Below, piece by piece: positions 3,610 through 4,849 of a DNA stretch of 64,000 nt (positions within the stretch are counted from its first letter, which is position 1; the number at the start of each line of letters is the position of its first letter). Where the stretch lies: assembly GCF_013167455.1 (NCBI RefSeq), contig NZ_CP038328.1; one strand, given 5' to 3'. Source of the DNA: Escherichia coli O157:H7 (GTDB taxonomy: Bacteria; Pseudomonadota; Gammaproteobacteria; Enterobacterales; Enterobacteriaceae). The translations under genes were made by a program, and so were the position numbers. The notes under the pieces are model-generated. The model was not told the origin of the DNA. It was given only the letters and a program-made list of their open reading frames with translations, and searched no databases.

Positions 3610-3721
3610 ATATTCATCCCTGAAATGTATTAATGAAATAAACGATATTTTACGCGCAATAAATGTTTGGCGCATTAGTTGTTTGAGCGAAAAATATCTG
3701 GGAAGCAGATCACAGTAAATA

Positions 3722-3803
3722 AAAAAACCTGCTGGTGAGGCAGGTTCTTTTATTTACTATTTTCAGGCCTAACACCACAGCCTGTGCAACATCGTGTTCC
3801 AAC
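3722..3803 (-). ncRNA. orzO: Orz-type antitoxin sRNA, copy 1 (about 81 nt)
   Basis: Minus-strand sigma70 promoter (-35 TTGCAA 3833-3838, 17-bp spacer, -10 TATAAT 3815-3810), predicted TSS near 3803, intrinsic terminator hairpin plus U-run ending about 3722. Its 5' 20 nt (complement of 3784-3803) pairs with zor 5' UTR 3950-3969 at 19 of 20 positions. Confidence 0.55.
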
Positions 3804-3832
3804 GAACGAATTATAACCACGGCTGGACCCCG

Positions 3833-3860
3833 TTGCAATTAAGATAATGAGATTTATAAT
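3833..3860 (+). promoter_or_regulatory. Predicted zor promoter (-35 TTGCAA, -10 TATAAT 3855-3860), sharing the palindromic -35 with the divergent orz promoter
   Basis: Consensus hexamers with 16-bp spacing; predicted TSS about 3868 gives a ~174-nt 5' UTR before ATG 4042. Confidence 0.45.
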
Positions 3861-4041
3861 CCTGACTGTTGGGACGTTGCGCCGGATCGAACCTATTTCA
3901 AGTCCTGGCTACCGGACGGGGGGTGCTGCAGGTGGTGCCCTGATCCGGAGTGCAACATCGTGGTCCAACATACGTAAACCAGTATCGACAGGCAGTGTAA
4001 GGGTAAGGTGCTGGTGTTGCGCTCCTTAATAAGGAGAGCGG

Positions 4042-4131
4042 ATGGACTCGCTGACACAAAAGTTAACCGTGCTCATTGCTGTACTGGAGCTATTAGTAGC
4101 TCTGTTACGGTTGATTGATTTGTTGAAGTAA
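4042..4131 (+). CDS. zorO: Zor-family type I toxin, 29-aa hydrophobic peptide (MDSLTQKLTVLIAVLELLVALLRLIDLLK)
   Basis: ATG 4042 preceded by SD taaggagag; TAA 4129-4131; sequence matches my recollection of ZorO/ZorP from EHEC O157:H7. Below the ORF-track size cutoff. Confidence 0.8.
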   Translation: MDSLTQKLTVLIAVLELLVALLRLIDLLK

Positions 4132-4331
4132 CGGGCAAATTGAAACGCATCTAAGGGGGAAAACCGCTTCCCCCTTTAATAAAATGATTACTGTTTTTAT
4201 TAATTCATCATATAACTCATTTTTATTTATAAATTCATCGATTTTATATTCAACGCACCATTTGACCGGGATGTGAATATTTATGGTGGGCTATTGGCAA
4301 AAAAATATCTGGAAAGTAGATCGCAGAAAAT

Positions 4332-4412
4332 AAAAAAACCTGCTGGTGAGGCAGGTTCTTTTATTTACTACAGTGACGCTAACTTGCTGATTGTGCAACA
4401 TTTCGTACCAAC
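4332..4412 (-). ncRNA. orzP: Orz-type antitoxin sRNA, copy 2
   Basis: Same architecture as copy 1: -10 at 4419-4424 on minus, -35 TTGCAA, terminator hairpin at 4338-4360 with A-run 4332-4338 on plus. Its 5' 20 nt (complement of 4393-4412) matches zor copy-2 UTR 4559-4578 at 18 of 20. Confidence 0.5.
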
Positions 4413-4650
4413 GAATAAATTATAACCATATCCACACTCCATTGCAATTCAGTGAGTGAGATTTATAATCCTGCCCGTTGGGAGGTTGTGCCGGATCGGA
4501 CCAATTTTAAGTCCTGGCTGCCGGACGGGTGGTGCCGCAGGCGGTGCCCTGATCCGGAGAGCAACGTTTCGTACCAACATACGTAAACCAGTATCGACAG
4601 GCAGTGTAAGGGTAAGGTGCTGGTGTTGCGCTCCTTAATAAGGAGAGCGG

Positions 4651-4740
4651 ATGGACACGCTGACACAAAAGTTAACCGTGCTCATTGCCGTACTGGAGTT
4701 ATTAGTGGCTCTGTTACGGTTGATTGATTTGTTGAAGTAA
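4651..4740 (+). CDS. zorP: Zor-family type I toxin, second copy (MDTLTQKLTVLIAVLELLVALLRLIDLLK)
   Basis: ATG 4651 with SD taaggagag, TAA 4738-4740; differs from copy 1 by one residue (S3T). Confidence 0.8.
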   Translation: MDTLTQKLTVLIAVLELLVALLRLIDLLK

Positions 4741-4849
4741 CGGGCAAATTGAAACGCATCTAAGGGGGAATACCGTTTCCCCCTTTAAGAAAGCTATACT
4801 CGTCATACTTCAAGTTGCATGTGCTGCGACTTTAATTATCTAGAGTATA

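What the first reader, a model, noticed from the sequence alone, without database searches (positions are those of the whole stretch)
3692..4791. Tandem pair of Zor/Orz type I toxin-antitoxin modules between yehL and yehK
Two ~490-bp units each hold a 29-codon hydrophobic ORF (MDSLTQK.../MDTLTQKLTVLIAVLELLVALLRLIDLLK) with a strong SD and long leader, plus a divergent ~81-nt sRNA with consensus promoter and intrinsic terminator. The 5' 20 nt of each sRNA is complementary to a stretch inside its cognate leader (19/20 in copy 1, 18/20 in copy 2), and that stretch differs between copies, consistent with pair-specific repression. I recall this family (zorO-orzO, zorP-orzP) from EHEC O157:H7 and as absent from K-12.
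Basis: partly seen in the sequence, partly recalled or inferred. Interest (0 to 1): 0.55.

Follow-up and report, generated by a model that had tools for sequence, protein, structure and literature searches.

The report
Known zorP-orzP and zorO-orzO toxin-antitoxin pairs

Summary

**Identity.** Window 3676-4849 is the yehL-yehK intergenic region and is 100% identical to E. coli O157:H7 genomes.

**Contents.** It holds two ~490-bp units that are 88% identical, with a 609-611 bp period.
- Each unit has a 29-codon ORF. ZorP (MDSLTQK…) lies at 4042-4131. ZorO (MDTLTQK…) lies at 4651-4740 and is identical to the published peptide.
- Each unit has a divergent ~81-nt sRNA on the minus strand that matches Rfam OrzO-P (99.9 and 88.8 bits; gathering score 60).

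**Assignment.** The published V1 triplet assigns unit 1 to orzP/zorP (ACG) and unit 2 to orzO/zorO (GAA).

**Pairing.**
- Each sRNA 5' end pairs with +85..+102 of its own 174-nt leader. Cognate duplexes are -31 to -35 kcal/mol; crossed ones are -20 to -24.
- Four compensatory double changes separate the two pairs.

**Published work.** Northern blots, start-site mapping, toxicity of both peptides, rescue of zorO by OrzO, RNase III dependence and 5' processing are all published.

- The gene order is P then O.
- K-12 is not empty: it keeps an orphan orzP, published as OrzPmg.

**Minor point I did not find discussed.** The two divergent promoters of each unit share one palindromic -35 hexamer.

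The parts
3722..3803 (-). orzP antitoxin sRNA gene (~82 nt). +1 is the G at 3803. The 3' terminator hairpin is followed by a U7 run at 3727-3721.
   Evidence: Rfam RF02083 at 99.9 bits. V1 at +9..+11 is ACG, the published OrzP signature. Fold.
3810..3838 (-). orzP promoter: -35 TTGCAA (3838-3833), 17-bp spacer, -10 TATAAT (3815-3810).
   Evidence: The same hexamers are reported as conserved in 99% or more of full zor/orz loci in PMC11264685.
3833..3860 (+). zorP promoter: -35 TTGCAA (3833-3838, the same palindromic hexamer used by orzP), 16-bp spacer, -10 TATAAT (3855-3860).
3868..4041 (+). zorP 5' UTR (174 nt). +1 is placed by homology to the mapped zorO start. The EAP-equivalent region is 3940-3969. 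RBS AAGGAG at 4031-4036 sits in a hairpin.
   Evidence: 90.8% identical to the zorO UTR, and 100% identical over +103..+174. G at 3868 and AAGGAG confirmed. The predicted fold pairs +1..+21 with +75..+102.
3950..3969 (+). OrzP pairing site in the zorP leader. Pairing pattern is 6(1)13: 19 of 20 Watson-Crick, with one A.G mismatch at sRNA nt 7.
4042..4131 (+). zorP ORF: 29-aa hydrophobic peptide MDSLTQKLTVLIAVLELLVALLRLIDLLK.
   Evidence: ZorP is the T3S variant of ZorO. Z3290 overproduction is toxic or partially toxic (Fozo 2010).
4153..4180 (+). zorP mRNA terminator hairpin AAGGGGGAAAACCGCTTCCCCCTT followed by TTAA.
   Evidence: I2. Homologous to the zorO hairpin folded.
4181..4300 (.). AT-rich unique spacer between the two units. 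It serves as a marker of the tandem arrangement.
   Evidence: Unrelated to the sequence downstream of unit 2. Present in 1802 of 5426 complete E. coli genomes.
4332..4412 (-). orzO antitoxin sRNA gene (81 nt). +1 is the G at 4412. U7 run at 4338-4332.
   Evidence: Rfam RF02083 at 88.8 bits. V1 at +9..+11 is GAA, the published OrzO signature. Fold.
4419..4447 (-). orzO promoter: -35 TTGCAA (4447-4442), 17-bp spacer, -10 TATAAT (4424-4419).
4442..4469 (+). zorO promoter: -35 TTGCAA (4442-4447, shared with orzO), 16-bp spacer, -10 TATAAT (4464-4469).
4477..4650 (+). zorO 5' UTR (174 nt). The 5' 28 nt (4477-4504) are removed by processing. EAP/standby region +73..+102 is 4549-4578. RBS AAGGAG at 4640-4645 sits in the hairpin CUCCUU/AAGGAG.
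   Evidence: The published RBS at +164..+169 of a 174-nt UTR fixes +1 at 4477. The MFE pairs +1..+22 with +74..+102, matching the published probing.
4561..4578 (+). OrzO pairing site (+85..+102): 18 contiguous pairs, 17 Watson-Crick plus one G.U.
   Evidence: It lies 73-92 nt upstream of the ATG, as published.
4651..4740 (+). zorO ORF: 29-aa inner-membrane toxin MDTLTQKLTVLIAVLELLVALLRLIDLLK.
   Evidence: Identical to the published ZorO peptide.
4762..4789 (+). zorO mRNA terminator hairpin AAGGGGGAATACCGTTTCCCCCTT followed by TTAA. It predicts a transcript of about 310 nt.
   Evidence: Published transcripts are about 280 and 310 nt.

Best explanation
This is the chromosomal zor-orz locus of E. 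coli O157:H7. It consists of two tandem type I toxin-antitoxin modules: zorP-orzP on the yehL side and zorO-orzO on the yehK side.

**Toxin side**
- Each zor gene is transcribed from a sigma-70 promoter as an mRNA of about 310 nt with a 174-nt leader.
- The Shine-Dalgarno sequence is locked in a hairpin.
- In the full-length RNA, the 5' ~22 nt pair with +74..+102 (the 'EAP' region), so translation is poor.
- Removal of the first 28 nt frees that region. It then promotes translation, probably as a ribosome standby site.
- The 29-aa peptide inserts in the inner membrane, depolarises it, lowers ATP and stops growth.

**Antitoxin side**
- Each orz gene is transcribed divergently, 65 bp away, as an ~81-nt RNA.
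- Its first 18-20 nt pair with +85..+102 of the cognate leader.
- This pairing blocks the standby region and triggers RNase III-dependent decay.
- Differences in the middle of the pairing segment (V1 and neighbouring bases) stop each sRNA from acting on the other mRNA.

**Shown here:** anatomy, identity, pairing, specificity by energy and by compensatory changes, and the predicted 5'-end/EAP pairing.

**Shown in the literature for this same sequence:** RNAs and their start sites, toxicity of both peptides, OrzO rescue of zorO, V1 specificity, the RNase III requirement, delta-28 activation, and membrane effects.

**Inferred:** OrzP represses zorP. I found no direct test of this.
For: **Identity**
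- 100% identical to O157:H7 chromosomes between yehL and yehK.
- Two Rfam OrzO-P matches at 99.9 and 88.8 bits; gathering score 60.
- The ZorO peptide is identical to the published one, and ZorP is its T3S variant.
- V1 is ACG in copy 1 and GAA in copy 2.
- RBS AAGGAG falls at +164..+169 when +1 is 4477, as published.
- The target lies 73-92 nt upstream of the ATG, as published.

**Pairing and specificity**
- Cognate duplexes are -34.8 and -31.3 kcal/mol; crossed ones are -20.2 and -24.4. z = -5.7 and -6.5 against shuffles.
- Between the two units, sRNA nt 6, 9, 10 and 11 and their partners all change while pairing is kept. That is four compensatory double changes.
- A third specificity class in other strains is also cognate-specific.
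- Divergence is concentrated in the sRNA 5' part (62% identity) and in the target (67%). UTR +103..+174 is 100% identical and the ORF 96%.

**Coding**
- ORF variation across 11 copies is three synonymous sites and one conservative T/S change.

**Structure**
- The predicted full-length fold pairs +1..+22 with +74..+102 and puts the RBS in a hairpin.

**Literature**
- PMC2887945, PMC3919570, PMC5397157, PMC6669753, PMC9860968, PMC11264685.
Against: - Nothing in the sequence argues against it.
- The OrzP-zorP duplex carries an internal A.G mismatch (pattern 6(1)13). Its repression was inferred from the published rule for OrzO (17 nt or more of discontinuous pairing), not tested directly in the papers I read.
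- The natural physiological role is unsettled. Phenotypes come mostly from overexpression or multicopy constructs.
- RefSeq annotates none of the four genes, and NCBIfam has no Zor model. This is an annotation gap, not counter-evidence.
Confidence: 0.97

Rival explanations
1. The modules are real, but their native job is not 'toxin and antidote'. Under this view Zor peptides are tightly regulated small membrane proteins. They tune membrane potential, and so aminoglycoside uptake or metabolism, in the gut. Orz acts as an ordinary sRNA repressor. This reading is not exclusive of the main explanation.
For: - The multicopy zor-orz locus, or zorO-orzO alone, improves growth in kanamycin and gentamicin.
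- Expression is reported as sensitive to carbon source.
- The toxin region is chromosomal, in 3397 of 5426 complete E. coli genomes. There are essentially no true plasmid copies, so plasmid addiction is not its role.
Against: - A single chromosomal copy did not give the aminoglycoside phenotype (section heading quoted).
- Overproduction clearly arrests growth and damages the membrane.
- About 37% of complete genomes have lost the toxin genes.
Confidence: 0.3
2. Orz sRNAs, especially OrzP, have targets of their own elsewhere in the genome. Repression of zor would then be only part of their function.
For: - K-12 keeps an intact orzP with its promoter although zorP is gone.
- About 30% of genomes are orz-only. 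The gene is highly conserved there and is expressed in MG1655.
Against: - No other target is known.
- Within this 64-kb window no other site has at least 15/18 complementarity to either sRNA 5' end.
- Conservation in orz-only strains could simply reflect a recent deletion.
Confidence: 0.15
3. One of the two copies (zorP-orzP) is a decaying duplicate that no longer works as a pair. The reason would be the internal mismatch in its duplex.
For: - There is an A.G mismatch at sRNA nt 7.
- No direct rescue test of zorP by OrzP appears in the papers read.
Against: - The duplex is still the most stable of all combinations, at -34.8 kcal/mol.
- It meets the published threshold for discontinuous pairing.
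- The same mismatch position is kept in the Q-type pairs of other strains.
- The ORF, RBS, promoters and terminators are intact.
- Z3290 is reported toxic or partially toxic on overproduction, and sRNA-2 is expressed.
Confidence: 0.04

Closest known systems
zorO-orzO / zorP-orzP of E. coli O157:H7 EDL933 (z3289, z3290; Fozo 2010; Wen 2014, 2017)
   Same: Everything tested matches: genomic site, tandem arrangement, peptide sequences, sRNA sequences including V1, leader length, RBS position, target position and promoter hexamers.
   Different: Nothing detectable. This is the same locus in an O157:H7 genome.
tisB-istR-1 of E. coli
   Same: - The antitoxin sRNA is encoded divergently.
- Pairing is short (about 20 nt), through the sRNA 5' end, far upstream of a structured RBS.
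- The full-length mRNA is inactive or poorly active and becomes active after 5' processing that exposes a standby site.
- Repression involves RNase III.
   Different: - tisB is under SOS (LexA) control.
[quoted passage not shown]
- The peptides score similarly in alignment (TisB-ZorO 43 against ZorO-DinQ 41), but this cannot be told apart from shared composition.
shoB-ohsC of E. coli
   Same: Divergent arrangement, limited complementarity through the sRNA 5' end, and a small hydrophobic toxin.
   Different: - Single copy.
- Different sequences.
- OhsC does not repress zorO unless it is given the OrzO 5' end.
dinQ-agrB of E. coli
   Same: - A small inner-membrane toxin with a long processed leader and tandem sRNA genes nearby.
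- ZorO and DinQ share 10 of 19 residues.
- Weak collinear DNA matches exist in the leader.
- Plasmid dinQ-like genes with a zor-like leader segment have been reported.
   Different: - No significant DNA similarity at E below 0.01.
- The peptide similarity is no better than to TisB.
- Homology is therefore unproven.

Membership tests
zor-orz type I toxin-antitoxin family | 29-aa hydrophobic Zor peptide (ZorO MDTLTQKLTVLIAVLELLVALLRLIDLLK; ZorP is its T3S variant) | tested here: met
   ORF 4651-4740 is identical to the published ZorO. ORF 4042-4131 is the T3S variant.
zor-orz type I toxin-antitoxin family | Orz sRNA matching Rfam RF02083 (OrzO-P) at or above its gathering score | tested here: met
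   99.9 and 88.8 bits; gathering score 60; full-length model matches on the minus strand.
zor-orz type I toxin-antitoxin family | V1 triplet at +9..+11 of the sRNA: GAA in OrzO, ACG in OrzP | tested here: met
   With +1 at 4412 the triplet is GAA. With +1 at 3803 it is ACG.
zor-orz type I toxin-antitoxin family | sRNA gene divergent from the toxin gene; both promoters have -35 TTGCAA and -10 TATAAT | tested here: met
   The hexamers are as tabulated in PMC11264685.
zor-orz type I toxin-antitoxin family | 174-nt leader with RBS at +164..+169 in a stem, EAP region +73..+102, and 18-nt Orz pairing site at its 3' end | tested here: met
   Coordinates fit exactly with +1 at 4477. The predicted fold puts the RBS in a hairpin and pairs +1..+22 with +74..+102. 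There are 18 contiguous pairs with OrzO.
zor-orz type I toxin-antitoxin family | Located in the yehL-yehK (yehI-yehL) intergenic region of E. coli/Shigella | tested here: met
   Flanking genes are annotated yehL and yehK in identical O157:H7 records. The site is as published.
zor-orz type I toxin-antitoxin family | Overproduced peptide arrests growth; the cognate but not the non-cognate sRNA rescues; RNase III is needed | not testable with these tools
   Published for zorO-orzO of this same sequence. Z3290/ZorP toxicity is published. I did not find a test of OrzP rescue of zorP.
type I toxin-antitoxin systems (general) | [quoted passage not shown] | tested here: met
   Cognate duplexes have z = -5.7 and -6.5 against shuffles. 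Four compensatory double changes separate the two units, and a third cognate-specific class exists in other strains. Divergence is focused on the two interacting segments.
dinQ-agrB family (considered as a possible relative) | Significant sequence similarity of toxin or leader to K-12 dinQ | tested here: inconclusive
   BLASTP gives 10/19 identities, E = 0.001 for the single comparison. The shuffle p is about 0.008, but TisB scores as high. DNA shows only weak collinear matches, none below E = 0.001.

The most novel reading that the evidence does not exclude
This reading goes beyond the published model in two respects.

**Promoter coupling.** In each unit the toxin and antitoxin promoters use the very same palindromic -35 hexamer, TTGCAA (3833-3838; 4442-4447). 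RNA polymerase therefore could not occupy both at once. Toxin and antitoxin transcription would be coupled by direct promoter competition.

**A cis copy of the antitoxin seed.**
- Both RNAs start with GUUGG and carry a GUUG(C/U) block 9-14 nt in.
- The mRNA's own 5' end is predicted to pair with the same two pentamers of the EAP site (CCAAC and GCAAC) as the antitoxin.
- The removable first 28 nt of the mRNA would thus act as a weaker, cis-acting copy of the antitoxin seed.
- The sRNA may have arisen by inverted duplication of the promoter plus the 5' end.
Probability: 0.2. Interest if true: 0.35.

Novelty: already known. Interest (0 to 1): 0.1.

Why it matters
As a discovery it does not matter. 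The locus was found in 2010 and has been dissected since: specificity rules, RNase III dependence, 5' processing and standby region, membrane action, and population survey.

It has practical value as a calibration case. A reader working from sequence alone recovered a real, experimentally validated type I toxin-antitoxin pair.

RefSeq annotation leaves this region blank in the O157:H7 record inspected. NCBIfam has no model for the 29-aa peptide, so such loci remain invisible in standard annotation.

The shared -35 hexamer and the similarity between the mRNA and sRNA 5' ends are small, testable additions to the regulatory model.

Tried and rejected
- **NCBIfam scan of both peptides.** No family found. 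This says nothing about function.
- **Plasmid search with the zorP leader and ORF.** Only 8 records matched. Several are Mb-sized records that are probably chromosomes or chromosomal fragments filed as plasmids (my inference from record length). There is therefore no evidence of a plasmid origin.
- **ZorO-DinQ homology.**
  - The peptide alignment looks good: 10/19 identities, shuffle p about 0.008.
  - TisB scores equally well against both peptides.
  - DNA similarity to the K-12 dinQ-agrAB locus is not significant.
  - I rejected this as a claim and kept it as a note.
- **Covariation test for the cis pairing between the mRNA 5' end and the EAP, across P, O and Q-type units.** I found only one-sided or wobble changes and no compensatory pair. 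The cis pairing therefore rests on the energy prediction and on the published probing.
- **Mirror-symmetry alignment of the two promoter arms.**
  - Unit 2 exceeds all 500 shuffles.
  - Unit 1 does not: score 37 against a shuffle maximum of 42.
  - The score includes the promoter hexamers, and any two RNAs that pair with one site must resemble each other.
  - Common descent is therefore not shown.
- **Weak Rfam matches.** Thr/Trp leader, STnc370 and isrH all fall below their gathering scores. The first three overlap the orz sRNA genes; isrH falls on the dispersed repeat at 4795-4849. I dismissed them.

Full report
**What is in the sequence**

The region 3610-4849 is the intergenic space between yehL (2521-3609, minus strand) and yehK (4850-5167, minus strand). 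The gene names come from RefSeq records that are 100% identical to window 3676-4849. All of these are E. coli O157:H7.

The region holds two direct repeats with a 609-611 bp period. The units 3690-4180 and 4301-4789 are 87.8% identical. They are separated by a unique AT-rich 120-bp spacer, and the sequence downstream of each unit is unrelated.

Each unit contains the following.
- A 29-codon ORF: 4042-4131, MDSLTQKLTVLIAVLELLVALLRLIDLLK; and 4651-4740, MDTLTQK….
- AAGGAG five bases upstream of the ATG.
- A GC-rich hairpin after the stop codon.
- A minus-strand ~81-nt gene with a TTGCAA-17-TATAAT promoter and a 12-bp hairpin followed by U7.

These are 19/20 at 3950-3969 and 18/20 at 4559-4578, the latter with one additional G.U pair.

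**More than chance**

- Both minus-strand genes match the Rfam family OrzO-P (RF02083) over the full model, at 99.9 and 88.8 bits. The gathering score is 60.
- In the entire 64-kb window, the only sites with at least 15/18 complementarity to the first 18 nt of each sRNA are its own gene and the leader of its neighbouring ORF.
- Cognate duplexes are predicted at -34.8 kcal/mol (unit 1) and -31.3 kcal/mol (unit 2). Their z-scores against 1000 shuffles are -5.7 and -6.5. The crossed combinations reach only -20.2 and -24.4.
- Between the two units, sRNA positions 6, 9, 10 and 11 and their four partners in the leader have all changed while pairing is kept. These are four compensatory double changes.
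- Divergence between the units is concentrated in the interacting segments.

| Segment | Identity between units |
|---|---|
| sRNA 5' part | 62% |
| Target site | 67% |
| Leader +103..+174 | 100% |
| ORF | 96% |

- Among 11 ORF copies from this window and six other strains, variation is limited to three synonymous sites and one conservative Thr/Ser change. This is the pattern of a translated, constrained peptide.

**Identity with the published locus**

- The locus was predicted and first tested by Fozo et al. 2010 as z3289/z3290, between yehI and yehL of EDL933. [quoted passage not shown] In the window the zorO site lies 73-92 nt upstream of the ATG.
- Wen et al. 2014 renamed the genes zorO-orzO and zorP-orzP. 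[quoted passage not shown] They also showed that OrzP cannot repress zorO, because of the V1 triplet at +9..+11: GAA in OrzO and ACG in OrzP.
- With +1 at G4412 the unit-2 sRNA reads GUUGGUAC-GAA. With +1 at G3803 the unit-1 sRNA reads GUUGGAAC-ACG. Unit 1, on the yehL side, is therefore zorP-orzP. Unit 2, on the yehK side, is zorO-orzO.
- The unit-2 peptide equals the published ZorO sequence, and ZorP is described as its T3S variant.
- Wen et al. 2017 place the RBS at +164..+169 of a 174-nt leader and the 'EAP' region at +73..+102. With +1 at G4477, AAGGAG falls at exactly +164..+169 (4640-4645). The EAP is then 4549-4578 and the OrzO site 4561-4578.

**Mechanism**

*Published, for this same sequence*
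- The full-length leader hinders translation.
- A processed form lacking 28 nt is more active, because the EAP region opens.
- The RBS stays in a stem.
[quoted passage not shown] This blocks translation and promotes RNase III-dependent decay.
- ZorO sits in the inner membrane, depolarises it, damages its integrity and triggers hydroxyl-radical production. Residues 20-24 (ALLRL) are required.

*Reproduced here by prediction*
- The RBS is in the hairpin CUCCUU/AAGGAG.
- zorP behaves the same way.

*Inferred only*
- OrzP represses zorP. Its duplex has an internal A.G mismatch (pattern 6(1)13). It is still the most stable combination and satisfies the published threshold of at least 17 nt of discontinuous pairing.

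**Population context**

Counts are out of 5426 complete E. coli genomes.

| Feature | Genomes |
|---|---|
| Toxin-bearing part of the unit (1-4 copies) | 3397 |
| Inter-unit spacer typical of the tandem arrangement seen here | 1802 |

- Strains differ in which specificity classes they carry. I found P+O, P+Q-like, O+Q-like and single units, and each sRNA pairs best with its own leader.
- K-12 is not empty. Its 306-bp yehL-yehK spacer keeps an orzP gene identical to the one here, the shared promoter region, and about 30 nt of zor leader. A deletion then runs to just before yehK.
- This 'orz-only' state, its frequency of about 30%, and expression of the orphan RNA (OrzPmg) in MG1655 were published in 2024.

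**Small points I did not find discussed in the papers read**

- *Shared -35.* In each unit the -35 hexamers of the two divergent promoters are the same six base pairs, the palindrome TTGCAA (3833-3838; 4442-4447). The starts are 65 bp apart. Simultaneous occupancy by two polymerases seems unlikely. This is inference only.
- *Similar 5' ends.* Both transcripts begin with GUUGG and carry GUUG(C/U) a little further in. The mRNA 5' end is predicted to pair with the same CCAAC and GCAAC blocks of the EAP that the antitoxin uses.
- *Limits.* This could reflect common descent by inverted duplication, or simply the fact that both RNAs bind one site. A covariation test across P, O and Q-type units gave no compensatory changes. 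The symmetry alignment is convincing for unit 2 only.

**Verdict**

This is a known, experimentally characterised system in its original host lineage. Interest is low. The only residual value lies in the annotation gap and the two untested regulatory details.

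Noticed in passing
window 3833-3838 and 4442-4447: The divergent zor and orz promoters of each unit use one and the same palindromic -35 hexamer, TTGCAA. The spacers are 16 and 17 bp, and the starts are 65 bp apart. This suggests mutually exclusive polymerase binding. I did not find it discussed in the text of the papers I read.
   Followed up: partly
window 4477-4498 versus 4412-4393 (minus strand); likewise 3868 and 3803: The zor mRNA and the Orz sRNA both start with GUUGG and carry a GUUG(C/U) block. 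The mRNA 5' end is predicted to pair with the same two pentamers of the EAP site as the antitoxin. No compensatory changes were found across strain variants.
   Followed up: partly
L001 2435-2740 (K-12 MG1655 yehL-yehK spacer): K-12 keeps an orphan orzP identical to the window copy, the shared promoter and about 30 nt of zor leader. The rest is deleted up to yehK. This is already published as OrzPmg.
   Followed up: yes
L003, L004, L006, L007, L008 (other E. coli strains, same intergenic site): There is a third specificity class: sRNA 5' GUUGAGAUGCCAUGUUGC with target GCAACAUGGCGACUCAAC. One strain, L006, carries a variant sRNA (GUUGGGGCGCCAUGUUGC) that still pairs best with that target. The class probably corresponds to the published zorQ/orzQ, but all peptides here equal ZorO, not the A20S variant.
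   Followed up: partly
window 4795-4849: A short dispersed repeat lies between the zorO terminator and yehK. It has a median of 5 copies per genome in 5425 of 5426 E. coli genomes and appears only once in this window. From memory it resembles the end of an ERIC/IRU element, but I did not verify this. It gives a weak isrH Rfam hit below threshold.
   Followed up: partly
window 58726-59530: Three tandem Sib antitoxin RNAs lie on the minus strand (Rfam SIB_RNA, 140-145 bits). Each faces an 18-19-aa Ibs-like hydrophobic ORF on the plus strand: 58741-58797, 59069-59125 and 59397-59456. This is a second, different type I toxin-antitoxin array in the same window. From memory, K-12 has two copies at this site.
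   Followed up: partly
window 231-2510 (minus strand): yehM is interrupted by an in-frame stop at about 981-983, giving ORFs 231-962 and 981-2651. It is flagged as a pseudogene with an internal stop in the identical O157:H7 RefSeq record.
   Followed up: partly
window 3610-4849: RefSeq annotation shows no feature for zorO, zorP, orzO or orzP in the O157:H7 record inspected. The search tables list no annotated feature under the match for most of the records shown. NCBIfam has no model for the peptide. This is an annotation gap for a validated locus.
   Followed up: partly
window 45279-45364 (-), 28946-29042 (+), 36888-36958 (+): Other RNA elements above Rfam gathering scores are the CyaR sRNA, a TPP riboswitch and naRNA4, a REP-derived nucleoid-associated RNA. 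All are ordinary for this part of the E. coli chromosome.
   Followed up: no
window 4651-4740 versus L010 7706-7789 (K-12 dinQ): ZorO and DinQ share 10 of 19 residues (LIA.LEL..LL.L). There are weak collinear matches between the zor and dinQ leaders. TisB scores just as well, so homology is undecided. A 2024 paper notes plasmid dinQ genes with a zor-like leader segment.
   Followed up: partly
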